IMG/VR virus record: IMGVR_UViG_3300025131_011243
Location: 58,592 to 122,591 of that record
Strand: one strand, 5' to 3'
DNA: 64,000 nucleotides
Source of the DNA: a virus
Made by a program: the position numbers and the translations under genes. Shown here in pieces: positions 40,573 through 58,869 of the stretch. The notes beneath the pieces are model-generated. The model had not been told where the DNA came from. It searched no databases and saw only the letters and a list, made by a program, of their open reading frames with translations. The stretch's first letter is position 1. Each line of letters begins with the position of its first letter.

Positions 40573-40576
40573 TAAG

Positions 40577-41075: not shown

Positions 41076-41111
41076 TTTGTTTCATCTCCGCCTCCTGTCG
41101 CTGCTTCAAAA

Positions 41112-41165: not shown

Positions 41166-41176
41166 TGTTATTTAAG

Positions 41177-41268
41177 CGGATAGGGAGGGATTCGAACCCT
41201 CAGATCATCAAAGACGACCCCCTGATTAGCAATCAGGTGTCCCGCACCAGTGGGAATCCAGCCTATCC
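41177..41268 (-). tRNA. second tRNA-Ser(GCT), atypical
   Basis: CCTGA-TTGCTAA-TCAGG; 6-nt connector before the D-stem. Confidence 0.75.
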
Positions 41269-41360
41269 AAATTTACTTTAGTAAAAACTCCATCTTTTAT
41301 CATTTTACCTTCATCACTACCTTCCGTTATGGCCCGAAGGGCCACTTTTTGTTTATTCAA

Positions 41361-42158
41361 TTACTTGTCGTCATCTTCCTTTTTATTATCAACTACCGCC
41401 TTAAGTTTGTCAAGTGTTGCTTGAGCAACATCTTGGTCATCGTCCTGATCGTCGTCAAGCAGATGGTCGATCTTCGATGCCGCAATATCTGCTCCGGCAT
41501 CATACAGGGCAGCTTTCGTACCGACATATGACCCTCTGGACATGGATATATCGGCGAATGCCCGCCGAGTACCGACCTGATCCCCCTTATAGGCCATGGT
41601 ATTGCCTTGCGGGATATTCAGTCGATCAGCCGTAACAACAACATCGTGATTCGCCCCGATATAAGTAAACGTCCAGGTTCCATCCTGTTGCAGGTGCTTG
41701 AGAAGATCCGCAACCTGATTGCCATTGTACTCTCTCGAAGCATTTTCTTCGCCATCTGTCAGGATAGTAACCATCACTTCAACGTTGATTTTCTCGTCCT
41801 GAAGTTCTTCGTCGATCTCTGCTTTCAGACGATTACAGCTTTGCCCAATGGCATCGTAAAGAGCCGTCGTACTTTCGGGAGCATACTGTTCAGCGGTCAA
41901 TGGTTCGATGACATCGACGCCTTCTTTCCAGTGGATTGATTCGACCGAACTGTTGAAAGTTATCAGGCAATAACGATGCTCTTGATTCGGGTTCTCTCTT
42001 TGCAGTTTCTGGATGGTTGTGACATTTTCGTTAAAGCCATTGACTGTTGGCTTTATTACTGAACTCATCGAAGCACTACGATCTAATATGATCAGATGAT
42101 AGAACTTGATGGGGATGTTCTTGTCTCGCCCACCGACATCTAGGTTAGGGTTGGGCAT
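41361..42158 (-). CDS. vWA domain protein
   Basis: MIDAS ILDRSASM, TALYDAIG, ILTDGEEN. Confidence 0.9.
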   Translation of the reverse strand: MPNPNLDVGGRDKNIPIKFYHLIILDRSASMSSVIKPTVNGFNENVTTIQKLQRENPNQEHRYCLITFNSSVESIHWKEGVDVIEPLTAEQYAPESTTALYDAIGQSCNRLKAEIDEELQDEKINVEVMVTILTDGEENASREYNGNQVADLLKHLQQDGTWTFTYIGANHDVVVTADRLNIPQGNTMAYKGDQVGTRRAFADISMSRGSYVGTKAALYDAGADIAASKIDHLLDDDQDDDQDVAQATLDKLKAVVDNKKEDDDK

Positions 42159-42216
42159 AATTTGGTTCCTTTCTTATGGTAATTGTAAACTAAACACAAA
42201 CACTGAACCAAAAGAC

Positions 42217-42747
42217 CTACTCACTCTCATTTGTCTTTGGTTCTTGGTTATCTAATCTCATCGCTTCTGGAGAAAACTGATCATAAACGTTGATTCCTGC
42301 TGATTCCAATTCTTTCACAATGATATATGCAGCAAGTTCGTATTTATCTTTCAAGCTCCCCTTGTTGAGGTCTCGAAGATTATGGTTGATATCGGCTATC
42401 TTAACCAATGAGGCAGGAACGTTCGTCCTCAACCTCATGATGAAATCAAAGTAGCTTTCATCCTCATCTTTCCTTCTAGTCAGACAATCAACTGCTTCAA
42501 CGATTGCCATTGGGAATCCCTCTTGCCGCAAATCTACAAGAGTATATTCGCTATCCTCAACAACGTCATGCAACCATGCCACAACCTTATATAGAGGAGG
42601 AAGGACAGAATCTGCTACTGCCTTGGGGTGAGTAATGTATGGCTGACCTCCCCACCTTGTTTGGCCATAATGAGCCTCTGTAGCGATTTTCTCGGCCTTT
42701 TCAATCAGTCCATCAATCGATTCCATCGGATCCATGATCATTCCCAA
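42217..42747 (-). CDS. HD-domain hydrolase (RelA/SpoT HD_4-like)
   Basis: AHYGQTR..PYITHP, WLHDVVED, VKIADINHN. Confidence 0.88.
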   Translation of the reverse strand: MGMIMDPMESIDGLIEKAEKIATEAHYGQTRWGGQPYITHPKAVADSVLPPLYKVVAWLHDVVEDSEYTLVDLRQEGFPMAIVEAVDCLTRRKDEDESYFDFIMRLRTNVPASLVKIADINHNLRDLNKGSLKDKYELAAYIIVKELESAGINVYDQFSPEAMRLDNQEPKTNESE

Positions 42748-42955
42748 CTAGATTCTTCTTTCCCAAAAGATAGCCACCATTCTTATGTTCGACATAAAGC
42801 ATGATGATTGTAGCAAAAATCCATACACTCCATGACCAAATCGACAATTCGTAAATGACGATGATCAGTAACGAAATGACCCATAACATAGAAATCAAGT
42901 TATGGATACCCCTGTATATCGAACTGTAATCAGGAGTCACTTTCTTCGTCGTCAT
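42713..42955 (-). CDS. small membrane protein
   Basis: 80-aa hydrophobic ORF. Confidence 0.5.
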   Translation of the reverse strand: MTTKKVTPDYSSIYRGIHNLISMLWVISLLIIVIYELSIWSWSVWIFATIIMLYVEHKNGGYLLGKKNLVGNDHGSDGID

Positions 42956-43712
42956 CTTCTTGTCTTTTCTTCAATTCATCTCGGAGTTCTTCCCAAGGTC
43001 TGACTTGGCGATTATACTCTTCGGGATCGTTCTCCTTCATTTCCTTCAACTCTTCCACTTGTCCCGTCAGGTCTTCGAGTTTTTCGTCTCGATTTTCCGG
43101 GTATCCGTAGAAGGTAATGTCGTCCAAAATGGCACCGAAAACATCATATACAGTATAGCATGTTTCCGTTTTTATCGCAACCAAGTCCTCGGCTTTGAGA
43201 GATCTTTTTCCGTCGCTGTCCTTGGAGTAGTCCCTGATCTCCAGTTCCTTGTCCAATCTAACAGGATAATCCCTAAGCTCGCAGAGAGGCGAGAAGCTAA
43301 GCGAGACCCCACAGGTTTCTCCGGGCTTGTAGCCGTCCACGCTGCCGTCTGTATTGACGCCATGGAAGTCGGTCCAGTATTCGAACGCCTTCCCATACTT
43401 GCCGTAATCCCAATGCTCGGCAACCCGGTATATCTCGATGTATTCAATGGTCGGGTTCGTCTTGGTTCTCAACGGAACCTGATCCATATCATCGAGAAAA
43501 GGTTGGATAGAAAAACCCCCCAACTGAACATGGAAAACCTTCTCGTAGAATTCTATGTCCTGGCGAAGATGGCTCATCAGTTCTCCGAAGGTGATTTCTT
43601 CGGCAAACTCGATGACTTCGCCAAGGTAGTGGGTGAGAGAATCTACGACATCGTAGTCTCTGCTCTTGTCTGCATGTTCGAGAACGATGCAGTCCTTGTA
43701 CAGTTTAATCAT
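42930..43712 (-). CDS. hypothetical protein
   Basis: 260-aa ORF, AGGAG RBS. Confidence 0.75.
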   Translation of the reverse strand: MIKLYKDCIVLEHADKSRDYDVVDSLTHYLGEVIEFAEEITFGELMSHLRQDIEFYEKVFHVQLGGFSIQPFLDDMDQVPLRTKTNPTIEYIEIYRVAEHWDYGKYGKAFEYWTDFHGVNTDGSVDGYKPGETCGVSLSFSPLCELRDYPVRLDKELEIRDYSKDSDGKRSLKAEDLVAIKTETCYTVYDVFGAILDDITFYGYPENRDEKLEDLTGQVEELKEMKENDPEEYNRQVRPWEELRDELKKRQEDDDEESDS

Positions 43713-43802
43713 GGTCGGACTCCTGTTGTAAGTTACCTACATAAACATCGGTAACCTCCAACAGGAATCCTCAAAATGGAGATTTGCCTTTTCATGATTA
43801 AT

Positions 43803-43831
43803 ATGTTACCAGAAACCAAAATCCTTGTCAA
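43803..43831 (-). promoter_or_regulatory. sigma70-type promoter
   Basis: TTGACA-N17-TAACAT with extended -10 TG. Confidence 0.65.
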
Positions 43832-43834
43832 GTC

Positions 43835-44482
43835 CTACTTGTAACTCCGAACCGCAAAGTCCTTTAGAGTTACGGACCAACTCTTCCAACGAGGGTTGTC
43901 CGAAAGAACGTAGTCCAAAACTTCCTCAGCCACAACCGTAACGACTAGCATTACGATATTTCGGGCCAAAGGATAGTCACAGACATCTCCATCTTCCGAA
44001 TTTGCCGGAACTTGGTAAACGCTGTCCCAAACGACTTCTCCATAGTCCTCGAACAAACCGGAATGCAAGCAATCGATCTTGTTCTTAGAACAATAGTCGT
44101 GGAGAACCTGCCGGGCCTCGCTGTTGTCGAACGCATCGATAACAAGCTTAGCACCCTTGAGTAACTTCTTGACGTTTTTTTCTTCAAGCTTCTTGTTTAC
44201 AACGTCGATTTCCACGCCAACATCCCTCCAGATACGATTTTGCAAAGCCGTAACCTTCAAAGCTCCAACGTCGTTGTCGCCATAGACTTGAGTGTTGACG
44301 TTATGTTCGTCAACTCGGTCCATGTCGATGACGCAGATATCGCTTACGCCCTGACGGATCAGGGTCTCTACCAAGTTGCTACCCAAAGCACCCGCACCGC
44401 AAACAACGATACGAACGCCCTTGAGACGATCAATCAGACCTTCTCCACGGTAGGCGATTTCATGTGTGAATTTCTTGGCCAT
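43835..44482 (-). CDS. ThiF/E1-like ubiquitin-activating enzyme
   Basis: GAGALGS, DMDRVDEHNVNTQ, LKV, DAFDN..AR, candidate catalytic Cys in DVCDYP. Confidence 0.9.
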   Translation of the reverse strand: MAKKFTHEIAYRGEGLIDRLKGVRIVVCGAGALGSNLVETLIRQGVSDICVIDMDRVDEHNVNTQVYGDNDVGALKVTALQNRIWRDVGVEIDVVNKKLEEKNVKKLLKGAKLVIDAFDNSEARQVLHDYCSKNKIDCLHSGLFEDYGEVVWDSVYQVPANSEDGDVCDYPLARNIVMLVVTVVAEEVLDYVLSDNPRWKSWSVTLKDFAVRSYK

Positions 44483-44901
44483 TTTTTCGCTTTCTTCATA
44501 ATGGGTCTAACAACTGTCGGCATAACCCCCACAATTCTTTTCTTGATCATTCGAATATGTCCCTCAACGAAAGGTTGTTCGTCGTCAAAGAACCAGAAGC
44601 ATCTTAGCCCATCTGCTCCCTTAATGCAACATACAAACGGTCTTCCTTCGGCAACTATCCAAGCATTCATAGTTAAGATGTCGGTTGTGCTGGGACTTGC
44701 AATCATTGAAGGATGGGTATGAATCCAACCAATCACTCGATCAGGATCTCTCCTGACAAGTTCATGGTTGAATCCAACCCTAGCTGGGATGCCCAATTCA
44801 TAAGAGATAGCGCTCGTAACCCAAACGGGTCCGTACAGATCTCCTACCAAGATGTAGGACTCTTCGTCGCCAGTATTCATATTGAACATCAATCGCTCCA
44901 A
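44434..44901 (-). CDS. JAB/MPN+ metalloprotease
   Basis: N-terminal Glu plus WIHTHP....PS..D JAMM motif. Confidence 0.85.
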   Translation of the reverse strand: MERLMFNMNTGDEESYILVGDLYGPVWVTSAISYELGIPARVGFNHELVRRDPDRVIGWIHTHPSMIASPSTTDILTMNAWIVAEGRPFVCCIKGADGLRCFWFFDDEQPFVEGHIRMIKKRIVGVMPTVVRPIMKKAKKWPRNSHMKSPTVEKV

Positions 44902-45824
44902 TCTCCAGTGTAATCGTCGGTTCCTCTATCGTCTACGTCAAGATAGTTCCCGCCAACTCGGTAAATCTGGTTGCCCGTAATACCCTCTCGGATAACGCCA
45001 ACCAAACTCTGCAAGTCGAAGTTCCTATCTCCACCAGACAAACAGATGCCCGCCGATTGAACAGCAAGCGTTTTCTTATCAACAGTCGAACGATGAGTTT
45101 CACCATCGACAACATACTCGACAGTATACGACTCGCCTCGCTCAACGAAACTCCTGAATCCGCCACCAGCACGATTGATTGCCGACTTTACTCGACCTTC
45201 TGCCGTAAGAGCTTCCGCCTCGACAGCAAGCCTCTTGGCTTCCTTTTCGGCCTCAACAACATCGACCAAAGCAAGGTCGTAAGCACGTCTCTGTTCCTTT
45301 GACATACTTGAAAAATCAACGTCCTTCGGGGCAACGTTTTCTGACAAGGCATTTCTCAATACAGTTGCATGCTTGATGCTATGAGCGTCGTCGATCCTTT
45401 CGAACCAACAGTTGATGCCATCGAATCTAACACGCACTGCATCGAACAACTGCAATTCTTCCGGCAAAAGAATAGGAACAAATCCTTGAATCTTGAACCG
45501 GGAATCACCTTCGTTTGCAGGGATACCCCAGAAACGGTTGTCCTGTCGCCTGGTTGCGATCAACCTTAGAACAGGGAACAGGTTGAAGTACGTTCGCCTC
45601 TCGATCATCGTAGGCTCACGTACAAACTCTGCGAGCTTGTAGGAAGCGGGACGGAATACGCCCCAACCCTCAAAACCTCTCGGCTTTGAAACCCGCAATG
45701 ACATAACGATGTCAGCAATCTTAACCCTGATCGCCTTATTGCGCAGAACAGGGCTGAAGAATTCCGACTTGAGGAAAACATCTTCTTCCGCTGCCAACTT
45801 TTTCAAAAGCTCATTGACCTTCAT
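44889..45824 (-). CDS. uncharacterised protein of the Ubl/TROVE operon
   Basis: 311-aa ORF; C-terminal SAGICLSGGD..FDLQSLVGVIRE. Confidence 0.8.
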   Translation of the reverse strand: MKVNELLKKLAAEEDVFLKSEFFSPVLRNKAIRVKIADIVMSLRVSKPRGFEGWGVFRPASYKLAEFVREPTMIERRTYFNLFPVLRLIATRRQDNRFWGIPANEGDSRFKIQGFVPILLPEELQLFDAVRVRFDGINCWFERIDDAHSIKHATVLRNALSENVAPKDVDFSSMSKEQRRAYDLALVDVVEAEKEAKRLAVEAEALTAEGRVKSAINRAGGGFRSFVERGESYTVEYVVDGETHRSTVDKKTLAVQSAGICLSGGDRNFDLQSLVGVIREGITGNQIYRVGGNYLDVDDRGTDDYTGDWSD

Positions 45825-45839
45825 GGCCTTACTCCAATT

Positions 45840-45870
45840 AAAACAGGGTAGCAGAAGCTACCCTGTTTTT
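45840..45870. terminator. intrinsic terminator after the TROVE gene
   Basis: AAAACAGGGTAGC-agaa-GCTACCCTGTTTT perfect hairpin with A/T tails. Confidence 0.75.
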
Positions 45871-45896
45871 CAAGTCAAAATGTAGCTCCTTCCGGA

Positions 45897-47441
45897 TTAC
45901 GCAACTTTCCTTTGAGGGAGAGTATACGACATAATTTCCATCAACAGATCGATCTTCGACGGCTTCGTCAAAAGCGGGATCAACCCCGGCAACGAGTAAT
46001 AGTCGCCGTTGAAGATATACGCATCGTAGTCGATGTCGTTATTGCGACATCGCTGTTCCAGCGTATCCCGATGCGTCCCGCACTTAACGAACAGAACGTT
46101 CGGACGAGTGTCCATATCCTTCATGTAGTTCAATATGCTGGACAAGAACGACGGAGATCGGTTCTCACCTTCGTCCGTAATCATGATGATGTTCTCGACG
46201 TACTGCTTGTTACGTCGAAGCATCTCAATTCCGACGCCGCAGGAAGTACATCCGGTAGCAAAGATGCCATTCAGAGCCTTTTCCCACGATGCCAAATCCG
46301 TTCCGCTCGAAACAATCGGATACGCCATTTCGTCACAAGCATAGACGAACAAATCAGCGTCCATGATTGCCGAAGTCATAGCAGCAATCTGCTTACCAAC
46401 TTCAATGGCGATGTTCATCGAACCGGACTTATCGATGATGATTGCCGTAGGACGCTTGATACGTCCCTTCGACTTCAACTGAGCATCACCGATGTCCTCA
46501 AGCTGCTTGGCAACGTCTTCGTCAATATCAGTAGTCTTCTTGACCTGGGACGCTTTCATAGCCGCAACACGCTTGCCCGTCTTTGCCTTGTCAAGACGTT
46601 CCTGAATGAACGCCTTGAGGTCCGGGTTGTCGAATGCACCACGACGCTTCAACGAACCGATGTTGTTGATCAACTCTTGGTCACTCATGACCTGAACCAA
46701 AGCCAAAAGAACGGTCGGACTCATTGCCGAGATTACCGTCGATGCGATTCGGTACGGAACCTTGTTGGCGATGATGATCTCAGCCTGCTTTGCAGCCGAC
46801 TCAGTCTTACGCAGTTCCTTAACCGCCTTCAACTTGCTGTCATCAGGCGGATCTTCATCGAAGAGAATCTTTTGCGCTCGATCCGAAGGCTCAATGTGGA
46901 GAAGAGAGTAAACCCTCTTCAACGACTTTCGAGCCTGCAAAACGCAAGCGTCGAACCAAACCGGATCGTCTTCACGATCAGTCAGGTATCGCTTAACTTC
47001 CGTTGCAACAGATCGAGGAATATTCTTGCCCAGACCAGAATCCGTCAAAGCCGTTCGATGAGTCGTCTTCTGGTTGCGGCCAGTTCCAGTCGTAACCGGA
47101 GTACTGACCTTTTTCTTGCGACCGTGAATGAAGTCGATAACTCTCTCCACCTGATAAGGCGGCAGTTCACGGAGCATGGCCAGTCCAACGTCTCGGTGTC
47201 CTTCGAAGTTGCTCAGACACAGGTTGACGATGAACAGTTCCTTATGGTCACGGATCTCGCCATTGTCAGCATACCATGCGCCCAAACGAACGTAGAACAA
47301 CGGATCTTGAGCAATCATCTGTTCATGAACAGGATGACTTGCGCTCAGATTTCTGTGGGGAGTCATCAACAGCGTATTCAGCATCCCCAAACGAAGATCC
47401 TGTTCACTGGACGTATCAACTTGTGCAGTTCGTACAGCCAT
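45897..47441 (-). CDS. Ro60/TROVE-like helical domain plus vWA protein
   Basis: N-terminal DPLFYVRL..W....EIRD, ELINNIGSLKRRG, C-terminal MIDAS IDKSGSM, TSCG, ITDEGEN; adjacent Y-like RNAs. Confidence 0.75.
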   Translation of the reverse strand: MAVRTAQVDTSSEQDLRLGMLNTLLMTPHRNLSASHPVHEQMIAQDPLFYVRLGAWYADNGEIRDHKELFIVNLCLSNFEGHRDVGLAMLRELPPYQVERVIDFIHGRKKKVSTPVTTGTGRNQKTTHRTALTDSGLGKNIPRSVATEVKRYLTDREDDPVWFDACVLQARKSLKRVYSLLHIEPSDRAQKILFDEDPPDDSKLKAVKELRKTESAAKQAEIIIANKVPYRIASTVISAMSPTVLLALVQVMSDQELINNIGSLKRRGAFDNPDLKAFIQERLDKAKTGKRVAAMKASQVKKTTDIDEDVAKQLEDIGDAQLKSKGRIKRPTAIIIDKSGSMNIAIEVGKQIAAMTSAIMDADLFVYACDEMAYPIVSSGTDLASWEKALNGIFATGCTSCGVGIEMLRRNKQYVENIIMITDEGENRSPSFLSSILNYMKDMDTRPNVLFVKCGTHRDTLEQRCRNNDIDYDAYIFNGDYYSLPGLIPLLTKPSKIDLLMEIMSYTLPQRKVA

Positions 47442-47491
47442 GGTCTTTCTCCTTAGAAAGAGTTTTACAAATTATCGATTCGGATTCGGAA

Positions 47492-47701
47492 TTAACCGAA
47501 TACAGCCTGCGGACGAAGAGTCATGTCACCGGTTTCTGCGTTGCGGTCAACAACGAAACCATTCATCTTGGTGAGAGGAGCACTGAAGTGATTAGCTACA
47601 GCCTGCTTGACGTCTTGGTCGGTAGAGAGATCGCCCACATCGATATCCTCGAAGAGAAGATCGAACGATTCTCCATTGTATCTGACGTGAAGTACTGACA
47701 T
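47492..47701 (-). CDS. ubiquitin-like (beta-grasp) small protein
   Basis: 69 aa, beta-beta-alpha-beta-beta pattern, ends in Gly (QAVFG), co-operonic with E1 and JAB. Confidence 0.75.
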   Translation of the reverse strand: MSVLHVRYNGESFDLLFEDIDVGDLSTDQDVKQAVANHFSAPLTKMNGFVVDRNAETGDMTLRPQAVFG

Positions 47702-47746
47702 TTTTCATCTCCTTTCGTCTGCAAGCCTCAAGAGAGGCATAAAAAA

Positions 47747-47878
47747 AGCCTTGTCTAAGTTTCAGGACGGTTTCTTGGGTAACGTGCAAGATTTGAACTT
47801 GCGACCTTCACTTCCTAATAGTGACGCTCAACCTACTGAGCTAACGTTTGTAACGTCCAAATTGTTGGAGACAAGGCT
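47747..47878 (-). ncRNA. Y-RNA-like RNA with nested tRNA-like domain
   Basis: terminal stem AGCCUUGUCU/AGACAAGGCU plus U-tract; inner D, anticodon (loop AUUAGGA) and T arms; shared motif. Confidence 0.75.
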
Positions 47879-47881
47879 AAG

Positions 47882-48016
47882 TGGGAGAGGTAGGAGTCGA
47901 ACCTACGAGTCTTGCGTTTTCAGGGCAATGCTTTACCAAAAGTTTGTAAGCTACATCCCATTGGAGACGGACAAGCCGTCTAAGTCAGAATAGCTATAGC
48001 ACTAAGCTACTCTCCC
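47882..48016 (-). ncRNA. tRNA-like (GAA anticodon) RNA with ~60-nt motif insert in the D-loop
   Basis: acceptor GGGAGAG/CUCUCCC, T-arm GUAGG-UUCGACU-CCUAC; insert ACUUAGAC..GUCUCCAA..UACAAAC. Confidence 0.75.
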
Positions 48017-48041
48017 ATAATTATTCAGTTTTCAAAAAGCG

Positions 48042-48112
48042 AACGTCCAAGTTCAGGCAGCGGTCAAAGCATTCCGAAGATTGGTTTGTATGCTGTCCTT
48101 GTTGGGGACGTC
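48042..48112 (-). ncRNA. stand-alone minimal Y-like motif RNA
   Basis: ACGUCCCCAA..CAGCAUACAAAC..GCUGCCUGAACUUGGACGU. Confidence 0.65.
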
Positions 48113-48126
48113 AACTTAATTTCAAG

Positions 48127-48268
48127 TGGGGGAGACAGGACTCGAACCTGTAGTCTTTCGCTTATGAGGCAAACGCTTTTCCATTTGTTTGTAAGCTACG
48201 ACCTATTGGAGACGAACAAGCCGTCTAAGTTGGAATAGCTGTTTAACGTAGTTTTTAGCTACTCCCCC
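48127..48268 (-). ncRNA. tRNA-like (CAU anticodon) RNA with motif insert in the D-loop
   Basis: acceptor GGGGGAG/CUCCCCC, T-arm ACAGG-UUCGAGU-CCUGU; insert nearly identical to that in 47882..48016. Confidence 0.75.
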
Positions 48269-48273
48269 ATGGA

Positions 48274-48318
48274 GGTCCCGGTCGCCAAGTTTCCGAAGAA
48301 GCTTGACGAGTCAGGACC
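48274..48318 (-). other. stable hairpin within the RNA array
   Basis: GGUCCUG..UCGUCAAG..CUUGGCGA..GGGACC. Confidence 0.45.
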
Positions 48319-48349
48319 ATATAGTTTTCAAAGAACTCTTTGAAAAGTC

Positions 48350-48516
48350 AAGAAGAAACAGGCGTCCAAGTTCGAGCAGCGGTATGACATTAGTCACAGA
48401 TCTTAAATCTGTTGCCTTATCCACTTGGCTATACGTTCATGTTGGTGAACATAGTGGGATTCGAACCCACGTTGTTGTTTGTACGCTACGCCAGTAGGGG
48501 ACGCCGGTTTCTTCTT
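48350..48516 (-). ncRNA. Y-like RNA containing a circularly permuted tRNA-Leu(UAA)-like domain
   Basis: order T-arm, acceptor 3' strand + ACCA, loop, acceptor 5' strand, D-arm, anticodon arm, all within the motif stem. Confidence 0.75.
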
Positions 48517-48592
48517 CACTTGTCAAAGTCGAGCCTTACGACTCTGCCCTATCTTATCAGCTTCCCAGCCACTTTCAAGGGCAATATTCAAC

Positions 48593-48620
48593 TTATCGGC
48601 TTTTTCTTGAAATTCCTTTA
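48593..48620 (-). promoter_or_regulatory. sigma28-like promoter upstream of the RNA array
   Basis: TAAA-N16-GCCGATAA; a sigma70-like TTGAAA-N16-TAAGAT also lies just downstream. Confidence 0.55.
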
Positions 48621-48636
48621 ATGAATTCCGCAAAGC

Positions 48637-48945
48637 TCAGTTTTTCTTACCTCTCGCAGCTTCAGAGGGCATCTTACCATATCTTTTATGGCTGTCAACC
48701 CCTAAATCATCGTCGTCAAAATCATCTCCGTCATCCCAAACTTCTCCGTTCTCATCTTTGTAACGCTCGTCTTTCATCCAAGTTATCACAACAGGATCTT
48801 CGCCTCGATAAAACTTTTCCTGATGCTGCCCGTCATGATCCTGGGGGAGAGGACATCGGACGGTAGCAACCCCATCGCCAAAGTCGTCTCCGATATAAAG
48901 GTGAGCATTACATTCGCCTTCAACATCTTCTGGTTTTCCAAACAT
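48637..48945 (-). CDS. hypothetical protein
   Basis: 102-aa ORF, AGGAGA RBS. Confidence 0.65.
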   Translation of the reverse strand: MFGKPEDVEGECNAHLYIGDDFGDGVATVRCPLPQDHDGQHQEKFYRGEDPVVITWMKDERYKDENGEVWDDGDDFDDDDLGVDSHKRYGKMPSEAARGKKN

Positions 48946-48964
48946 TCGTTTCTCCTAAGTTAAG

Positions 48965-49046
48965 TGCGGAAGGAGGGACTTGAACCCTCAAGCCTTACGG
49001 CACTGGATTTTAAATCCAGCGTGTTTGCCAATTTCACCACTCCCGC
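48965..49046 (-). tRNA. tRNA-Leu(TAA)
   Basis: CTGGA-TTTAAAA-TCCAG, variable arm, A73. Confidence 0.93.
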
Positions 49047-49047
49047 T

Positions 49048-49518
49048 CTATTCATTCCAATCGCTGTCGATCATATCGTAAGGATCGAAACCCATTCTTT
49101 TCAACTTGTTCCAAAAGCGAATGTTATCTCGTTCTCTTTGTTCCTGTTTCTCCTCTTCCTTTCTAGCCCATTCTTCTCGATGCAATTTAATCTCTTCCAG
49201 CCTTGCCCTGCGACATTGGCTACACATGTTCCATAGGTATCTGCATCGCACATGAGGGTCAAGCTTCCGTCTTGCATGTTCGGTAAACTTGCTGCTATCC
49301 TTTTTGTTTGCCGTTTTCTTTACCTTGTACTGAGTCTTGCGATGCTTCTTCCAAGACCTTACGATGGTCGTTGAAACGTCGTCCCATGCGTCAGGCAACA
49401 TTCGGGGAGTCCTTTTCCCTCGAATCCTGTAACGCATTTCAGCATCTTCCATGTCCTCCAAGGACCCGTAGTAGCCACGACGTTCATTGGTCGTTGCGGG
49501 GGATCTGAAGTAACCCAT
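49048..49518 (-). CDS. hypothetical basic protein
   Basis: 156 aa, LPDAWDD..RSWKKHRKTQY. Confidence 0.7.
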   Translation of the reverse strand: MGYFRSPATTNERRGYYGSLEDMEDAEMRYRIRGKRTPRMLPDAWDDVSTTIVRSWKKHRKTQYKVKKTANKKDSSKFTEHARRKLDPHVRCRYLWNMCSQCRRARLEEIKLHREEWARKEEEKQEQRERDNIRFWNKLKRMGFDPYDMIDSDWNE

Positions 49519-49522
49519 TTTC

Positions 49523-49581
49523 GTATCTCCTATGCAAAGTTAAACACTTCACATAGGAGATACCGGCTTTGTCCTTTTCAT
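49523..49581 (-). promoter_or_regulatory. RBS-sequestering hairpin overlapped by a 10-aa uORF
   Basis: 12-bp perfect inverted repeat 49523-49534/49552-49563; uORF MKRTKPVSPM 49549..49581. Confidence 0.55.
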
Positions 49582-49597
49582 ATCTGTATCCTTTCAA

Positions 49598-49683
49598 TAC
49601 GGGCGAGAGGGGTCGAACCTCCATAGGATTTTACTCCCGCCAGATCCTAAGTCTGGTGCGTCTGCCAGTTCCGCCACGCCCGC
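49598..49683 (-). tRNA. tRNA-Leu(TAG)
   Basis: CCAGA-CTTAGGA-TCTGG. Confidence 0.93.
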
Positions 49684-49692
49684 TCTTTCAAA

Positions 49693-49778
49693 TACGGATA
49701 AGAGGAGTCGAACCTCCATGGGATTTTACTCCCGCTAGATTCTGAGTCTAGTGCGTCTGCCTATTCCGCCACATCCGC
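49693..49778 (-). tRNA. tRNA-Leu(CAG)
   Basis: CTAGA-CTCAGAA-TCTAG. Confidence 0.93.
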
Positions 49779-50270
49779 TCTTAAGTCATTTTTGTTCTTG
49801 TTCCTTCCTCCATATGTAGGAGTTTGACTATGACAATTTGGACATAGTAATCTAAGATTCCTTATGCGATTGTCTGTCCTGTCTCCGTTCTCGTGGTCCA
49901 AATGCATTGAAAGAGGTTCTCCATTCCACTCTGTTCCCATTCCGCATTTAGAACATTTTTCTTCCAGTTTGCCACATTCGATTAACCTTTTCTTAAGGTG
50001 GCAATTGTTGTATACGACTCCCTTTTTTAGGAGATCCCTTAACTCTCTCTTACTAGGTGGGCTCCATGTTTTATCAAGCTTTCTTCTAGATGCCTGCCCT
50101 AAAAAATGACTCGTATCTATCTTGAAGTTTTCAATCTTGCCCTTCAAGTGAGAATGATTCCCCCCTGAAGGAGCAAGCCCTATCTTCTCCAAAACCTGGC
50201 TAATGGAGAAAGAAGTAGCTACTGCCTCCTCCAGATCTTGGATAGAATACCTTTTCGACGTATGCTTCAT
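49761..50270 (-). CDS. HNH homing endonuclease in the tRNA cluster
   Basis: CSKCG..LDHENGDRTDNRIRNLRLLCPNCHSQT; stop codon lies inside tRNA-Leu(CAG). Confidence 0.92.
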   Translation of the reverse strand: MKHTSKRYSIQDLEEAVATSFSISQVLEKIGLAPSGGNHSHLKGKIENFKIDTSHFLGQASRRKLDKTWSPPSKRELRDLLKKGVVYNNCHLKKRLIECGKLEEKCSKCGMGTEWNGEPLSMHLDHENGDRTDNRIRNLRLLCPNCHSQTPTYGGRNKNKNDLRADVAE

Positions 50271-50333
50271 ATTGCACCTCCACTATTAGGTACAATATCT
50301 TATAGTAAACCTCCTTCACAATTTACCAATGAG

Positions 50334-50358
50334 GTTTGCCAGTTTCCGTCACCTGGGC
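50334..50358 (-). pseudogene. 5' fragment of a tRNA-Leu
   Basis: GCCCAGGTGACGGAAACTGGCAAAC, truncated in the D-arm. Confidence 0.55.
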
Positions 50359-50555
50359 TTTATTTTACCATGTTTGCCTCACGGATGCATCCTTTTTCTT
50401 GCCAAATTCTTTTTCTTCTGTCGAATTCAAAGGGATTCTATGATCCCGCAGGATGTCAAAGAGATTTCGTTTACCTTGCCGGTCTTCGGCTCTCTTACGG
50501 TCATAGTCGTCTCCTTCGTCGTTTGCTTGAGTTTTCATAGCAGTTCTCCTTTTAA

Positions 50556-50639
50556 TGCACCGGGTTGGATTCGAACCAACGTAGACTTTCGCCAACAGTT
50601 TGACAGACTGCTGCAACTCTCCAACTTTGCCGCACGCTC
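50556..50639 (-). pseudogene. degenerate long-arm tRNA with GTC anticodon
   Basis: D, anticodon and T arms fold but the acceptor stem has three mismatches. Confidence 0.55.
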
Positions 50640-50646
50640 TCAGTTA

Positions 50647-50684
50647 TTACAGCCTACCGGGCTCACCACCTGCCCAACTCGCCT
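50647..50684 (-). pseudogene. 5' half of tRNA-Tyr(GTA)
   Basis: AGGCGAG-TT-GGGC..GCCC-G-GTAGG-CTGTAA then breaks. Confidence 0.6.
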
Positions 50685-50697
50685 ATTAAGTTTCAAA

Positions 50698-50780
50698 TAC
50701 CCCTGACAGGAGTCGAACCTGTACGCCTTAATCGGCAGTAGGTTTTGAACCTACCGTGTCTGCCGTTCCACCACAGGGGC
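50698..50780 (-). tRNA. tRNA-Leu(CAA)
   Basis: GTAGG-TTCAAAA-CCTAC. Confidence 0.93.
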
Positions 50781-50791
50781 TCTGTTTCAAA

Positions 50792-50875
50792 AGGCCGCTG
50801 AGGGATTCGAACCCTCGATGGCTTAACGCCAGCGGATTTGCAATCCGCTCCCTTTGTCCGCTCGGGCAAACGGCC
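50792..50875 (-). tRNA. tRNA-Cys(GCA) with long variable arm
   Basis: GCGGA-TTGCAAA-TCCGC, U73, extra arm TGGC-GTTAA-GCCA. Confidence 0.85.
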
Positions 50876-55582: not shown

Positions 55583-55639
55583 CGTTATCCTATCTATAAA
55601 GCCCTCGCATTGTACAATATTTGGATTGAAATTCAAGGG

Positions 55640-55666
55640 AAAAGAAAAGGCGGCATTTCTGCCGCC
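55640..55666 (-). terminator. intrinsic terminator after the RNase P RNA
   Basis: GGCGGCA-gaaa-TGCCGCC-TTTTCTTTT. Confidence 0.85.
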
Positions 55667-55672
55667 GATAAA

Positions 55673-55874
55673 GACGTTTGGCTCCGTAAGCAGGATTCTG
55701 TTCTATGTCGTCATTTCTCTATTGGCCCTCTACCCGCCATCATAGTCATGCTCACCAACTCCGGCTGCTTGAGGTTGCTATCTCTGTGGTCCAAGCGGCG
55801 TTAGCCTCCCACATTAGAGCACTATAGTCCTGACTTTCCTCTGCGAATTGCAGCGACGACTCGAACCAAACGTC
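55673..55874 (-). ncRNA. rnpB: minimal RNase P RNA (~202 nt)
   Basis: CR-I GAGGAAAGUCAGGA and CR-V ACAGAAUCCUGCUUA form P4 with compensatory changes; P1, P2, P3, P5, P15 and L15 GGU fold. Confidence 0.88.
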
Positions 55875-56196
55875 AAATACCCTTTAGAGCTTGCACAATT
55901 TTACCAACTTCTTTGCCCCATTCTGTCCGCTTATTGCCTATGGCCAATATAGTCTTGGAAAACTCGGAAGCTGGAGCGTCTTCTATCTTACCCAATTCTA
56001 TTCTTCGAAGCAAGATCCTCATATCCTTGGACAATTCTTCGCCTCTCCTTTTCATTCCATCGAAATCATGGGACACAAAAATTACCAAAGAAGCATCGTC
56101 CGAAGAATCGTACAAGGATTCAATCTCGTTCAAAATCCTATGTATTTCTAATTGGCTTTCTCTGATAGTTGATTCCACCACATTGATGGGTATCAT
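55873..56196 (-). CDS. hypothetical protein
   Basis: 107-aa ORF; stop codon overlaps the rnpB 5' end. Confidence 0.65.
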   Translation of the reverse strand: MIPINVVESTIRESQLEIHRILNEIESLYDSSDDASLVIFVSHDFDGMKRRGEELSKDMRILLRRIELGKIEDAPASEFSKTILAIGNKRTEWGKEVGKIVQALKGI

Positions 56197-56621
56197 TTTT
56201 TCAACCCTTTCTCAGCCAAATATTCATCAACTCTGTTTTTTACCCTTTGTGCTGGAGTGGAAGTTTCAACTACATACAGAGCTTCTGTCTTTAGTTCCTC
56301 GCCCCATTGCTGAACCAAATCTGTGGCCCTGTCCCTGTAATCGTTGTCGGTGATGCTCTTGCCTACTGGAGACGAAAAGAATTCAATTGCTTTATTGATA
56401 TCTGTTTCGCTCAAATGGTTCGCCGCTAAAACTACCAAGCGATTGAACAAAACATCTTCCCCATATTTGTCTTGAAGTTTCTTCCTATCTTCTTCACTAA
56501 CCTCGGGAGCCGATCTCCAAAGATCGGCAAAAATACGATCTACCAATTCTCTGGTGATAACATTGCTTCCCATCAACTTCAACAACTGCATGGTTCGGCT
56601 AAGATATTGCGCTTCAGTCAT
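56193..56621 (-). CDS. DUF2059-like protein
   Basis: HLSETDINKAIEFFSSPVGKSI. Confidence 0.65.
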   Translation of the reverse strand: MTEAQYLSRTMQLLKLMGSNVITRELVDRIFADLWRSAPEVSEEDRKKLQDKYGEDVLFNRLVVLAANHLSETDINKAIEFFSSPVGKSITDNDYRDRATDLVQQWGEELKTEALYVVETSTPAQRVKNRVDEYLAEKGLKK

Positions 56622-57010
56622 GGCTGAACAATGCCTCCCGTTTTCTGAGTCTCTTCCATAAGGTTGTCAAGAACCTTGAGGTCATGCTCTGTTGCGGTCG
56701 TAATCCCTCCGCCCTGCTGTTTTGTCTGTTCTTGAACTTCCGCTTCCGCCTGTTGCCAAGCTGCGTTGAACTTATCAAATGCTTCGTTGATATTCAGGGC
56801 ATCAGCGATGACAAACTTGATACTAACAACACCTTGTCCGGTATCGACAGGTCCTATGCCTATAAAAATAGGCTCGTCCCCAGCTACAGGAACGTCCTCT
56901 CCGTCCGGAATATCTACTTCGAATTCGCCCTCCTTGGTCCACATTTCAATCCTGTGAAAACTGTCGGATTGAAATATGCTCCTACGACGAAAAGGAAGAT
57001 TGAACTTCAT
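56618..57010 (-). CDS. hypothetical protein
   Basis: 130-aa ORF, AAGGTG RBS. Confidence 0.65.
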   Translation of the reverse strand: MKFNLPFRRRSIFQSDSFHRIEMWTKEGEFEVDIPDGEDVPVAGDEPIFIGIGPVDTGQGVVSIKFVIADALNINEAFDKFNAAWQQAEAEVQEQTKQQGGGITTATEHDLKVLDNLMEETQKTGGIVQP

Positions 57011-57069
57011 AAAACACCTTTCATTTGAGTTATTGACTTTGGATATTGTACTCTAATGGCAATCACAAA

Positions 57070-57263
57070 GGTGGGGCTGGACGGTACATCGCAGAAAAGA
57101 AGTAAAAAACGAGAATGAGTCTTGCGTCTTAATCGTTAACTATTGAGCCATTGAATCTTGAATTCTGACCTTCTAGATCACGATCAGGTACGTTGGTCAT
57201 TCAAATGACCTAACATTTGTTTTCGCAGTTCACCTCTAGTCAACTTCTCCGCCCAACCCCATC
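57070..57263 (-). ncRNA. candidate structured ncRNA with ~7-nt periodic repeats
   Basis: 15-position closing stem (one mismatch) 57249-57263/57070-57084, internal hairpin, eight imperfect YCAA-type heptads at 57114-57170. Confidence 0.6.
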
Positions 57264-57279
57264 AACAGATCAGTCGAGA

Positions 57280-57738
57280 TCAGTCGAGATCAGGAATATC
57301 GATTGTCGTATTGTGATTGAAAGTGTCGAGTTCCGACTGGATGGTATCAATCTGTGTTTCCAGTCTGGCAGCATTCTGGTCCGCTTCTTGCCTACGGACT
57401 TCGGCCTCATAGACCGGAGCATCGCCAGAACCGTAATAGCTAGACGCCGAAGTTCCATGATTCGTGTTGATCCCATTCCAGAAATCTACTTCAGTCTTTG
57501 ATTCTGAAAGTCTGAAGATTTTGCCTACAATGGGGGCGTTAGCCTGAGCCACAGCAACCTTAAGATCGATCAGATGATTTACGAGAGCCTCTCGCCTTTG
57601 GACAAGGGCTCGGATATCCTCTTCTCGCTCTTCTCCCTGAACGGCAGAGTTTGAACTTTGAACCTTGTCGTTGACCTTCGCAATCCATCCGGCAACTCTT
57701 TTCTTGTAAGACAGTGCTTTTGCTAGTGTTAGTTTCAC
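57280..57738 (-). CDS. DIP1984/DUF6847-like coiled-coil protein
   Basis: LTLAKAL..K, LKVAVAQAN, IDTIQSELDTFNHNT. Confidence 0.6.
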   Translation of the reverse strand: MKLTLAKALSYKKRVAGWIAKVNDKVQSSNSAVQGEEREEDIRALVQRREALVNHLIDLKVAVAQANAPIVGKIFRLSESKTEVDFWNGINTNHGTSASSYYGSGDAPVYEAEVRRQEADQNAARLETQIDTIQSELDTFNHNTTIDIPDLD

Positions 57739-57749
57739 CTTGCAATCTC

Positions 57750-58355
57750 CTAGTATTCTTCGCTTAACAGGACTCTCTTAACTTCAACGCCCGAATAGCC
57801 CATTATATCCAACTGGGCTTTCACTTTTTTGTTTCTTACCCAAACCCGTCCAGCTTTCATAAGATCGAGTTCAGGAACGACGCATTGAACGGTTCCAGGA
57901 TTCTGGCGAGCCTTTCTCAACCATCGGCTTTTTGACCATGAAGGCTTTAATACCAATCTGCGCTCATAGTCAGATACATTATAGTCGTTATGCCCAGAGT
58001 TCAAAACAATATGCCAATAATCATAGTCGCTAAACATAAGGGTCGGAATCTGATCTTCCTCAAACGAGAACATGATGTAATTAGGAAACTCTCCCTTTTT
58101 ACAATATATGCTCTTGCCGTCCTTGCAGCCTATCCATCTTCTCCATTGATTCTGGTAACCAGTCATACCATGAGCATGCACGTTGTTGCCTACCGTCATG
58201 TATAGCGGAACAAAACCAGCGGCATCGCCCATCCATCGGTAAGCAGGTTCAAAATACTCATCAAATTCATCTTTATACGGACCATAAGAGGGGCGCAGAA
58301 TGCGAGCCTCAACTCCACGCATATCCGTACAATGATGGAAAATGAACTTCTTCAT
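57750..58355 (-). CDS. DUF3841-like protein
   Basis: AYRWM, FSDYDYWHIVLN, VQCVVPEL. Confidence 0.55.
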   Translation of the reverse strand: MKKFIFHHCTDMRGVEARILRPSYGPYKDEFDEYFEPAYRWMGDAAGFVPLYMTVGNNVHAHGMTGYQNQWRRWIGCKDGKSIYCKKGEFPNYIMFSFEEDQIPTLMFSDYDYWHIVLNSGHNDYNVSDYERRLVLKPSWSKSRWLRKARQNPGTVQCVVPELDLMKAGRVWVRNKKVKAQLDIMGYSGVEVKRVLLSEEY

Positions 58356-58371
58356 CCGTGAACTTTAGCAA

Positions 58372-58869
58372 CTACTTCGCTCGTTGAATCATCTGCTGCT
58401 GTTCTAAATACAACTCTGATCTTTCCCTTGTCCAAGGCTCAGTTTTAACGGGCTTATCTCTGGCGTCTACCCTTGGTCTTGCCTCTGGTCTTGCCTCTGG
58501 TCTTGCTGTTTCTTCTTTTGGCGGCTCTGGCTTTTCAGGAAGAGGGGCAGGCTCTTCTGCAACAGGCTCTTCCGTCTCTTCAGGATTGTCCCATGGAACA
58601 GAAGAAATGTCAAAAGGTTTCGTTGCGACTTGGGGATACAGTCTGGGTAACACAAAATCCTTGAAGTCCCCCTGATTCTCCTTCATAGCTCCAACTGTAA
58701 TACTTAAATTACGAACAAGCTCGTCTAGGGCTCCAACCGTACCTGCCAAAGCGTTGTTCTCAGCTTTAAGGTCAGAAATTTGAGCTTGTTGAGAAAAACT
58801 CCACGCTCCCCAAGCGATGATGATTGCCCCAAGAGCGGTATTCACGATATAAGGCTTGAGACCAGACAT
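58372..58869 (-). CDS. membrane-anchored coiled-coil/Pro-rich protein
   Basis: N-terminal TM helix, ARPE repeats. Confidence 0.65.
   Translation of the reverse strand: MSGLKPYIVNTALGAIIIAWGAWSFSQQAQISDLKAENNALAGTVGALDELVRNLSITVGAMKENQGDFKDFVLPRLYPQVATKPFDISSVPWDNPEETEEPVAEEPAPLPEKPEPPKEETARPEARPEARPRVDARDKPVKTEPWTRERSELYLEQQQMIQRAK

What the first reader, a model, noticed from the sequence alone, without database searches (positions are those of the whole stretch)
57070..57738. Structured ncRNA candidate with heptad repeats directly downstream of a DIP1984-like coiled-coil gene
A ~195-nt region is closed by GAUGGGGUUGGGCGG/CCGUCCAGCCCCACC, where G-U pairs favour the minus strand. It contains a hairpin GGUCAUU-UG-AAUGACC and a ~7-nt periodic run: GGUCAGA AUUCAAG AUUCAAUG GCUCAAU AGUUAAC GAUUAAG ACGCAAG ACUCAUU. 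Inference: repeated binding sites for the oligomeric helical protein upstream, forming an RNP or a type III toxin-antitoxin-like pair.
Basis: partly seen in the sequence, partly recalled or inferred. Interest (0 to 1): 0.72.

Follow-up and report, generated by a model that had tools for sequence, protein, structure and literature searches.

The report
Heptad-repeat RNA behind DIP1984-like gene
Right behind a small helical-protein gene of unknown function, this large uncultured phage encodes a folded RNA of about 194 bases carrying a row of 7-base units; the same uncatalogued gene-plus-RNA pair recurs in dozens of other phage contigs, so the two probably work together in a way not yet described.

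Summary
Window 57263-57070 (minus strand) is a 194-nt element closed by a 13-14-bp stem. It folds far better than shuffles on the minus strand only, and it carries a 7-nt periodic CAA/UAA track. It starts 17 nt after the stop of a 152-aa gene with the DIP1984 (3KDQ) fold.

Of 45 metagenome loci with a homologous gene, 41 could be judged. Thirty-three carry one conserved, covarying ~200-nt RNA starting at the stop codon. That RNA has a long closing stem, invariant AGUAG opposite GCGAAA, UGAU repeats and Y-U-Y-A-A-R-A heptads. The other 8 carry divergent stem-closed versions. RNA-first pattern scans led back to the gene in 8 of 8 evaluable cases.

The window copy is a divergent member. A profile of the main group puts its best hit in the whole window exactly here (E 0.028). 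No Rfam family matches, and my paper searches found no description.

Best reading, about 0.55: a two-part protein-RNA module, made as one transcript, with the predicted dimeric protein reading the heptads. Binding is inferred, not shown. A type III toxin-antitoxin reading is not supported.

This scan's earlier notes report the same module on other DNA, in at least 30 genomes.

The parts
57280..57738 (-). 152-aa DIP1984-fold gene (three long helices plus a small sheet); stop codon TGA at 57282-57280
   Evidence: ORF list. NF038048 E 3.5e-6, 27.2 bits against a cut-off of 70. Pfam DUF6847 E 0.0039. AlphaFold2 pLDDT 96.7. Foldseek top hit 3KDQ, TM 0.75, prob 1.00. 1731 cluster representatives at E<=1e-3.
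57070..57263 (-). The whole structured RNA element (194 nt), on the gene's strand, read as the 3' extension of the gene's transcript
   Evidence: Strand-specific fold, z -3.48 against -0.46. 184 of 192 aligned bases identical to L015, against 88.8-91.8% in the flanking ORFs and 47 of 59 in the next spacer. Best hit in the window of a profile of the main-group RNAs.
57249..57263 (-). 5' strand of the closing stem (GAUGGGGUUGGGCGG)
   Evidence: Sequence; paired in the MFE and centroid structures; my stem scan.
57070..57084 (-). 3' strand of the closing stem (CCGUCCAGCCCCACC)
   Evidence: Sequence.
57229..57237 (-). 5' strand of the inner helix AGAGGUGAA, pairing with UUUACUUCU at 57106-57098
   Evidence: Paired in the MFE. 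The covariance model R1 aligns this helix to the main group's P1.
57098..57106 (-). 3' strand of the inner helix (UUUACUUCU)
57195..57210 (-). Hairpin GGUCAU-UUGA-AUGACC
   Evidence: Sequence; MFE. Reduced to 4 bp in L015.
57176..57186 (-). UGAUCG UGAUC repeat, counterpart of the main group's UGAU/UUGAU repeats
   Evidence: Sequence; aligned to the UGAU block of the main-group profile.
57114..57170 (-). Heptad track: eight units of 7-8 nt, six with CAA or UAA in phase
   Evidence: Lag-7 statistics. Identical to L015 apart from one A to G change. Aligned in register with the main-group heptads.

Best explanation
A two-component protein-RNA module. The DIP1984-fold gene and the ~194-nt structured RNA are made as one transcript, with the RNA as its 3' end. 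The RNA folds into a stem-closed scaffold that displays a single-stranded or weakly paired track of 7-nt units (U-Y-A-A core). I infer that dimers of the protein bind these units side by side, giving a defined ribonucleoprotein.

The 5' strand of the closing stem begins 0-20 nt after the stop codon, so a terminating ribosome must open it. This would favour loading of newly made protein onto its own RNA, and possibly feedback on its own translation.

What is shown: the RNA is real, strand-specific, conserved, covarying and periodic; gene and RNA co-occur in both directions; a dimer is supported by the model. What is inferred: direct binding, one protomer or dimer per heptad, co-translational loading, and any cellular role. 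In the main group the module sits inside phage tRNA arrays. In this window it sits in an operon that ends in an RNase P RNA-like gene. That hints at a tRNA- or translation-related role.
For: (1) Strand-specific fold.

(2) The RNA is more conserved than its neighbours between the window and L015. RNA identity is 95.8%, the ORFs are 88.8-91.8% and the next spacer is 79.7%.

(3) Of 45 metagenome loci with a homolog of the gene at 27-90% identity, 4 have no downstream DNA. Thirty-three carry one RNA family: 28 distinct loci were scored at E<=4.1e-20 by model R1, and 5 more have the same downstream sequence. The other 8 carry divergent elements.

(4) Main-group structure: 26 pairs, 89.1% of cells paired against 30-56% when slid, 17 pairs with changes on both sides, and 0 of 500 shuffles as high on four of the five measures (5 of 500 on pair types).

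(5) G-U pairs are frequent in P1, for example GU 14 and AU 11 at one pair. This fits RNA on this strand, not duplex DNA.

(6) Heptad phase is conserved column by column. U is invariant at columns 139, 146, 154, 177, 184 and 191, with AA two columns later. Lag 7 is the best lag in 12 of 15 elements, and in 12 of 15 at most 11 of 500 shuffles reach the observed value.

(7) RNA-first scans. Of 12 pattern hits, 10 carry the RNA. Eight of those have enough upstream DNA, and all 8 have the gene at E<=7.7e-51. In an earlier scan 5 of 10 hits were true, and all 5 lay behind the gene.

(8) Apart from one syntenic relative (L016) and close kin, the only protein shared by the loci is the DIP1984-like one.

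(9) Two huge phages, LR756511 and LR756500, have the gene followed by a stem-closed heptad RNA.

(10) Homodimer test: score 0.70, best of 3 controls 0.00. The mark was reached by 20 of 30 proteins solved as pairs of one chain and by 1 of 23 solved as single chains. The runs agree in at least 96% of contacts, and the partner pLDDT is at least 89. 3KDQ was solved with four chains, so this pass may come from likeness to that entry.

(11) The 3' end is well defined. A tRNA starts 1-5 nt after the RNA in 15 of 23 main-group loci with room to judge. Hairpin-plus-U-run sequences that I read by eye as intrinsic terminators follow at once in L018, L020 and L022 (no terminator scan was run on those loci).
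Against: There is no direct evidence of binding and no expression data.

The window protein is acidic (pI 5.25, net charge -5). The family median pI is 6.75 with net charge 0, and only helix 1 is basic at +6.

Several of the most conserved residues (N30, S31, K60, E79, G95; I74 itself is not among the listed contacts, though its neighbours 75-76 are) lie in the predicted dimer interface. So conservation does not point to an RNA-binding face.

The window RNA is only weakly like the main group. Model R1 gives 10.6 bits, E 0.01, in a 501-nt search and nothing with default filters over 222 kb. nhmmer gives 8.9 bits, E 0.028.

The heptads might instead pair with the upstream UGAU repeats. That pairing is compatible, with 86.6% of cells paired, but it shows no covariation.

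One divergent locus, L022, shows no lag-7 signal (407 of 500 shuffles reach it), and L024 is marginal (55 of 500).
Confidence: 0.55

Rival explanations
1. A cis-acting 3' UTR element of the gene's own mRNA. It would be a 3'-end stabiliser and/or a translational control element whose basal stem holds or abuts the stop codon, with no stable particle formed with the protein.
For: The covariance-model match starts at the stop codon in 26 of the 28 distinct metagenome loci (27 of them matched over the whole model, L053 being cut at the contig end), and 5 and 7 nt before it in L045 and L058; L007 and L014 have no ORF coordinates. There is no promoter or terminator between gene and RNA in the window. 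In tRNA arrays the mRNA would be cut out between a tRNA 14-58 nt upstream in 20 of 28 loci (26 of 28 within 208 nt) and a tRNA 1-5 nt downstream, and would need a protected 3' end. The protein is not basic.
Against: A 3' stabiliser needs only a stable stem. It does not explain an invariant AGUAG/GCGAAA internal loop, UGAU repeats and phase-conserved heptads kept while the protein diverges to about 30% identity. In LR756511 a small extra ORF lies between the gene and the RNA, so the RNA is not tied to that stop codon.
Confidence: 0.2
2. The RNA acts on a host or other phage partner, and the DIP1984-like protein is only co-expressed or acts in the same pathway. The RNA could be a sponge or decoy for a host RNA-binding protein, ribonuclease, or tRNA-acting enzyme or nuclease.
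For: The main-group heptad consensus Y-U-Y-A-A-R-A equals the general 7-nt anticodon-loop pattern Y32-U33-NNN-R37-A38 with anticodon YAA; that pattern is recalled, not tested. The module sits in tRNA arrays. In this window it lies 1.2 kb upstream of an RNase P RNA-like gene in the same orientation.
Against: The strict two-way linkage to one gene is not needed for a free-standing decoy. The window's own heptads fit the anticodon-loop pattern poorly, with only the CAA/UAA core kept. No partner was identified.
Confidence: 0.15
3. A type III toxin-antitoxin-like pair, with a protein toxin neutralised by a repeat RNA.
For: Only the general picture of a small protein gene next to a repeat-bearing RNA in a phage.
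Against: No ToxN/AbiQ-type family match. The fold is the helical 3KDQ fold. The RNA lies downstream with no terminator in between. The units are 7 nt inside a closed scaffold, not tandem units of about 36 nt.
Confidence: 0.03
4. A DNA-level element (protein-binding iterons, origin or packaging signal), or chance.
For: Short periodic A-rich repeats can be DNA-binding sites or curvature signals.
Against: The fold energy is strand-asymmetric. G-U pairs and two-sided compensatory changes occur in the stems. The orientation relative to the gene is fixed in every locus.
Confidence: 0.03

Closest known systems
DIP1984 family / DUF6847 (NCBIfam NF038048, Pfam PF20935; crystal structure 3KDQ from Corynebacterium diphtheriae; often annotated 'septicolysin')
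   Same: Same fold (Foldseek prob 1.00, TM 0.75). Same length. Weak but specific HMM matches. 127 of 150 family representatives match NF038048 at E<=1e-3.
   Different: Scores are below the curated cut-offs: 27.2 against 70 bits, and 17.6 against 27. Identity to 3KDQ is 13-14%. No function and no RNA partner is on record for the family in the papers my searches listed (listings only).
VIPR systems: Vipr (RAMP) protein plus vrRNA (bioRxiv 10.64898/2026.04.26.720920; abstract, Results part 1 and passages read)
   Same: Phage-encoded. A small protein gene lies next to an RNA with a track of short tandem units, part constant and part variable, capped by a structured region. According to the abstract start of 10.64898/2026.04.26.720927 in a search listing, protomers oligomerise along the RNA.
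   Different: Vipr is an RRM/RAMP protein; here the fold is helical 3KDQ. vrRNA units are 5 nt (YNNGG, 9-16 copies) with hypervariable NN. Here the units are 7 nt with a U-Y-A-A core, and the other positions vary mostly by transitions and stay similar among relatives. No DNA target is known.
TRAP with the trp leader and HutP with hut mRNA (Bacillus subtilis); recalled, no call
   Same: Homo-oligomeric proteins that read evenly spaced short triplets (GAG/UAG; UAG with 4-nt spacers, that is a 7-nt period for HutP) on one RNA.
   Different: The folds are unrelated. Those RNAs are 5' leaders that control termination. Here the RNA is a stem-closed 3' element linked to the protein's own gene.
Ro60/Rsr with Y RNA (YrlA); recalled
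   Same: A protein gene with an adjacent structured, stem-closed RNA partner, also found in phages.
   Different: No TROVE domain and no Rfam Y RNA match at this locus.
Period-7 'beads-on-a-string' cluster #156,623 in bioRxiv 10.64898/2026.10.21.760802 (section 7 read)
   Same: [quoted passage not shown] Here the UUGA repeats could pair with the UYAA units (86.6% of cells paired).
   Different: That cluster is mostly from Patescibacteriota and has no co-localised protein. Its sequences were not visible to me because supplements are closed. My pairing model shows no covariation.

Membership tests
DIP1984 family (NF038048 / PF20935) | HMM score at or above the curated cut-off | tested here: not met
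   NF038048 27.2 bits against 70. PF20935 17.6 bits against 27. This is a sister branch, not a member by the curated rule.
DIP1984 family (NF038048 / PF20935) | Fold of 3KDQ: three long helices plus a small sheet, about 150 aa | tested here: met
   Model pLDDT 96.7. 3kdq_C E 2.7e-4, prob 1.00, TM 0.75; the next hit has TM 0.30.
   No hit with default filters. With filters off on 501 nt: 10.6 bits, E 0.01, at the right place and strand. A sequence-only profile over the whole window gives its best hit at 57186-57117 on the minus strand, E 0.028.
   The window has UAGAGG and CUGCGAUG at the corresponding places. A CUUUUC-N-GCGA resemblance is kept on the 3' side only.
Type III toxin-antitoxin (ToxIN, CptIN, TenpIN) | Toxin of a ToxN/AbiQ-type endoribonuclease family | tested here: not met
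   The Pfam scan lists only DUF6847, DUF7902 and PGDH_inter, all weakly. The fold is 3KDQ.
Type III toxin-antitoxin (ToxIN, CptIN, TenpIN) | Antitoxin is an array of tandem repeats of about 34-36 nt upstream of the toxin gene, separated by a terminator (feature recalled) | tested here: not met
   The RNA lies downstream, the units are 7 nt, and no terminator lies between.
VIPR | Vipr RAMP/RRM protein | tested here: not met
   All-helical 3KDQ fold. Definition taken from the preprint.
VIPR | vrRNA with 9-16 YNNGG pentanucleotide repeats | tested here: not met
   The period is 7 and there is no GGY motif.
Any Rfam 15 family | Covariance-model match | tested here: not met
   No match in 57011-57279 at E<=10. 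None on the element in L003 or L004 at E<=1. None recurrent in 10 further loci at E<=5.

The most novel reading that the evidence does not exclude
The module is a new class of RNA-scaffolded particle. DIP1984-fold dimers would line up on the heptad track and present the bases between the fixed U..AA positions, or the YAA triplets themselves held in anticodon-loop-like U-turns, to read another nucleic acid or to decoy a tRNA-acting enzyme. This would be a 7-nt counterpart of the VIPR 'constant plus variable' repeat code. Large phages would use it in tRNA or translation takeover, or in conflicts between mobile elements.
Probability: 0.12. Interest if true: 0.92.

Novelty: categorically new. Interest (0 to 1): 0.76.

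Why it matters
A protein family with more than 1,700 cluster representatives and a solved but unexplained structure (3KDQ) would gain a first functional handle: an obligatory RNA partner.

The RNA family is absent from Rfam 15. It has an unusual anatomy, a closed scaffold carrying phase-conserved heptads. It sits in phage tRNA arrays, where stable RNAs of unknown function have been known since T4 (recalled).

After VIPR, a second unrelated phage protein-plus-short-repeat-RNA system would suggest that periodic-repeat RNPs are a wider principle. The pair is small (a 152-aa protein and about 190 nt of RNA), so binding, structure and phenotype tests are simple.

Tried and rejected
**Searches that found nothing**
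- Nucleotide search of 55600-58400 in GenBank phages: no match.
- Single-protein locus search in viral contigs: none confirmed.
- Closing-stem pattern in viral contigs: 0 hits.
- Alignment A6 in viral contigs: none confirmed.
- tblastn of the window protein against GenBank phages found only two uncultured huge phages. T5 was not recovered by this query, so the T5 membership named in earlier notes was not tested here.
- tblastn of P0002 against plasmids: no match.
- Sequencing runs: no RNA holder was listed.
- Paper searches for DIP1984, septicolysin, DUF6847/PF20935/3KDQ/NF038048, heptanucleotide or heptamer repeat RNAs in phages, and T5 ncRNA listed nothing on function or on an RNA partner. 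I saw listings and abstract starts only. Supplements are closed, so tables of the two preprints that might list period-7 families could not be seen.

**Models and structure tests that did not help**
- Model R1 with default filters does not find the window element.
- RNAalifold on six divergent elements gave 0 pairs, because the MAFFT alignment lines up only the heptads.
- Pairing of UUGA repeats with UYAA units: compatible, but only 2 cells change on both sides and the shuffles are nearly as good. Left open.
- A VIPR-like hypervariable code: the non-core heptad positions vary mostly by transitions and stay similar among relatives. Not supported.

**Readings rejected**
- A coding reading. The mechanical ORFs 57217-57501 (+) and 57270-57476 (-) overlap the gene and the element, and the family alignment has indels that are not multiples of 3.
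- Type III TA and VIPR membership (see Membership tests).

**A slip in a script**
- In one search the script printed a stale HMM line for L063 and L070, where only 100 nt lie upstream. I disregard those two lines.
Full report
**What is there**

All genes around the finding run on the minus strand. The 152-aa ORF 57738-57283 ends with TGA at 57282-57280. Seventeen nucleotides later the element starts. GAUGGGGUUGGGCGG (57263-57249) pairs with CCGUCCAGCCCCACC (57084-57070), and the next gene starts at 57010. The stem has 13 contiguous pairs, two of them G-U.

The minus-strand RNA of 57050-57280 folds at -72.7 kcal/mol (z -3.48, 0 of 200 shuffles as good). The plus strand gives -51.4 kcal/mol (z -0.46).

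Inside the stem lie four features:
- an inner helix, AGAGGUGAA pairing with UUUACUUCU;
- the hairpin at 57210-57195;
- a UGAUCGUGAUC repeat;
- the heptad run at 57170-57114.

Lag 7 is the best lag. It gives 25 of 49 matches, reached by 8 of 2000 shuffles, or by 21 of 1000 if any lag from 4 to 12 is allowed. The consensus scans found no promoter or terminator signal beyond chance between gene and element. The window is part of a 122.6-kb virus record rated 26% complete, and the element occurs once in it.

**The gene**

It matches NCBIfam DIP1984_fam (E 3.5e-6, 27.2 bits, cut-off 70) and Pfam DUF6847 weakly. A profile of five relatives finds 1731 cluster representatives at E<=1e-3, and 1341 at E<=1e-10. 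Of the best 150, 127 match DIP1984_fam, the best at E 8.7e-15, which I take (not checked per member) to be below the 70-bit cut-off.

The AlphaFold2 model (pLDDT 96.7) has three long helices and a small sheet. Its only real PDB neighbour is 3KDQ, with TM 0.75 and prob 1.00.

A homodimer is supported by the model. The score is 0.70 and the best of 3 controls is 0.00. The mark was reached by 20 of 30 proteins solved as pairs of one chain and by 1 of 23 solved as single chains. The runs agree in at least 96% of contacts, and the partner pLDDT is at least 89. 3KDQ has four chains, so the pass may reflect that entry.

The protein is acidic (pI 5.25). The family median net charge is 0, and only helix 1 is basic.

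**Relatives**

Of the 45 metagenome loci:
- 4 have no usable downstream DNA (L038, L052, L056, L059);
- 33 carry one clearly homologous RNA that begins at the stop codon;
- 8 carry divergent elements (L015-L020, L022, L024).

The 33 break down as 28 distinct loci, all scored at E<=4.1e-20 by model R1, plus 5 whose downstream sequence is the same (L023, L026, L028, L033, L044).

Searching from the RNA side gave the same link. Of the 10 hits of the first pattern, 5 were true and 5 were chance, and all 5 true ones lie behind the gene. Of the 12 hits of the second pattern, 10 carry the RNA and 2 (one sequence seen twice) are chance. Eight of the 10 have 700 nt upstream, and all 8 encode the protein at E<=7.7e-51. 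The other two are cut 100 nt upstream but end with the family's C-terminal codons.

Two huge phages in GenBank, LR756511 and LR756500, have the gene followed by a stem-closed heptad RNA. In LR756511 a small Lys-rich ORF lies in between.

Across 15 sampled loci and the window, the DIP1984-like protein is the only protein shared. The exceptions are close kin and L016, which also shares the window's upstream 201-aa gene and its DUF2059-like gene.

**The main-group RNA**

The alignment is 25 sequences in A4. The RNA contains, in order:
- an outer stem that includes the stop codon;
- a 14-bp P1;
- invariant AGUAG opposite (C)AGCGAAA, flanked by a 2-bp GC/GC helix in which C to U goes with G to A in two sequences;
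- one or two variable hairpins, often closed by UUCG;
- a block (A)UGAUGC-UUUGAUA-UUGAUA-UUGA;
- four heptads, a purine-rich spacer (AGGAAAA), two or three more heptads, then ACUUUUCAGC.

I recall AGUA opposite GAA as the loop E (sarcin-ricin) motif. That is a lead, not a test.

The 26 pairs I annotated are 89.1% paired, against 30-56% when slid. Seventeen pairs have changes on both sides, and 0 of 500 shuffles reach the observed values on four of the five measures, with 5 of 500 on pair types. RNAalifold on its own finds 11 of these pairs, 9 with two-sided changes.

In the heptads U is invariant at columns 139, 146, 154, 177, 184 and 191, with AA two columns later. The consensus is Y-U-Y-A-A-R-A.

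Lag 7 is the best lag in 12 of 15 elements tested. In 12 of 15, at most 11 of 500 shuffles reach the observed value. L018 gives 24, L024 gives 55 and L022 gives 407 of 500.

The UUGA repeats could pair with the UYAA units as four short helices (86.6% paired), but nothing covaries.

**Is the window copy the same thing?**

It shares position, size, closing stem, UGAU repeat and heptad track. It lacks the AGUAG/GCGAAA loop.

R1 misses it with default filters. With filters off on 501 nt it gives its best hit at 57242-57093 on the minus strand (10.6 bits, E 0.01), with the heptads in register. A sequence-only profile of A4, run over all 64 kb on both strands, puts its best hit at 57186-57117 on the minus strand (8.9 bits, E 0.028); the next hit has E 0.23.

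Against its nearest relative L015 (protein 90% identical) the RNA is 184 of 192 identical. The four ORFs are 88.8-91.8% identical and the following spacer is 47 of 59. The heptad track differs by one base.

I conclude that the window element is a divergent homolog in a small clade (window, L015, syntenic L016, perhaps L017 and LR756511). In that clade the track reads two units, a G-rich spacer, then four units.

**Context**

Twenty-six of the 28 distinct main-group metagenome loci have a tRNA within 208 nt upstream of the ORF. In 15 of the 23 with at least 100 nt of room downstream, a tRNA starts 1-5 nt after the RNA; the other gaps are 27-229 nt. RNase P cleavage at the tRNA 5' end would therefore make the RNA's 3' end; that inference rests on established knowledge. 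In L018, L020 and L022, hairpin-plus-U-run sequences that I read by eye as intrinsic terminators follow directly (no terminator scan was run on those loci).

The window copy is not in a tRNA array. Its operon ends 1.2 kb further on with an RNase P RNA-like gene and a terminator-like hairpin.

**Mechanism**

The best-supported reading is a protein-RNA pair made from one transcript, in which the dimeric protein reads the periodic units. Because the closing stem starts 0-20 nt after the stop codon, a terminating ribosome must open it. That would favour loading in cis, or feedback. Binding, stoichiometry and role are all inferred. The protein's charge argues for caution.

The rivals are a purely cis-acting 3' UTR element, an RNA that acts on another partner, a type III TA-like pair, and a DNA element. 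They are weighed in their own sections.

**Known systems**

No Rfam 15 family matches.

VIPR is the nearest concept but fails both membership features. It has a RAMP protein and YNNGG units (preprint 10.64898/2026.04.26.720920: abstract, Results part 1 and passages read).

A language-model survey reports one period-7 cluster without a protein partner in Patescibacteriota (preprint 10.64898/2026.10.21.760802, section 7). I could not compare sequences.

My searches for DIP1984, septicolysin, DUF6847 and related terms listed only annotation mentions (listings only).

**Earlier notes of this scan**

A word search returned 31 findings in at least 30 genomes that describe a DIP1984-like gene followed by a heptad-repeat RNA. 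They cover T5-like and Bacillus phages, giant viruses, megaplasmids and an archaeon. One related claim was checked later, with odds of 94/100 for what was seen and 1/100 for its bold reading.

These notes gave me the VIPR lead, which I read and tested. The rest I did not test, and my tblastn did not recover T5.

**Limits**

- There are no expression data.
- The window clade has only four or five members, so its internal helices beyond the closing stem are predictions.
- E-values of R1 are rough because its calibration was shortened.

Noticed in passing
window 55671-55872 (-), with 55649-55666 (-): Sub-threshold but strong match to bacterial RNase P RNA class A (72.1 bits, gathering score 100, E 3.4e-21). 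It spans model positions 1-367 in only about 200 nt: the conserved core strands are kept and most of the specificity domain is missing. A terminator-like hairpin follows directly. This would be a phage-encoded minimal RNase P RNA-like gene at the end of the operon that holds the finding.
   Followed up: partly
window 40164-50875 (-): Eleven tRNA genes, all on the minus strand: five Ser, five Leu and one Cys.
   Followed up: no
window 57266-57295 (-): The 10-nt unit CUGAUCUCGA occurs 2.8 times in tandem across the stop codon. The close relative L015 has one unit fewer. The extra copy lies after the stop and lengthens the gap between stop and closing stem from 7 to 17 nt.
   Followed up: partly
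window 57043-57053 (-); L015; L060 1990-1999 and 2275-2284: GAGUACAAUAU is kept between the window and L015 in an otherwise diverged spacer just after the RNA. GUACAAUG also sits on two gene starts in LR756511. It may be a phage promoter or start signal.
   Followed up: no
L060 (LR756511) 1990-2076: A 28-codon Lys/Pro-rich ORF lies between the DIP1984-like gene and its heptad RNA.
   Followed up: no
L004 842-903: Sub-threshold match to the freshwater-1 RNA motif RF02979 (59.2 bits, gathering score 72, E 9.6e-12) inside a phage tRNA array.
   Followed up: no
L016 1206-1445 and 2609-3013, against window 57750-58355 and 56193-56621: L016 shares the window's upstream 201-aa gene (53% identity over 72 aa) and its DUF2059-like gene (30%), so it comes from a syntenic relative of this phage.
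   Followed up: partly
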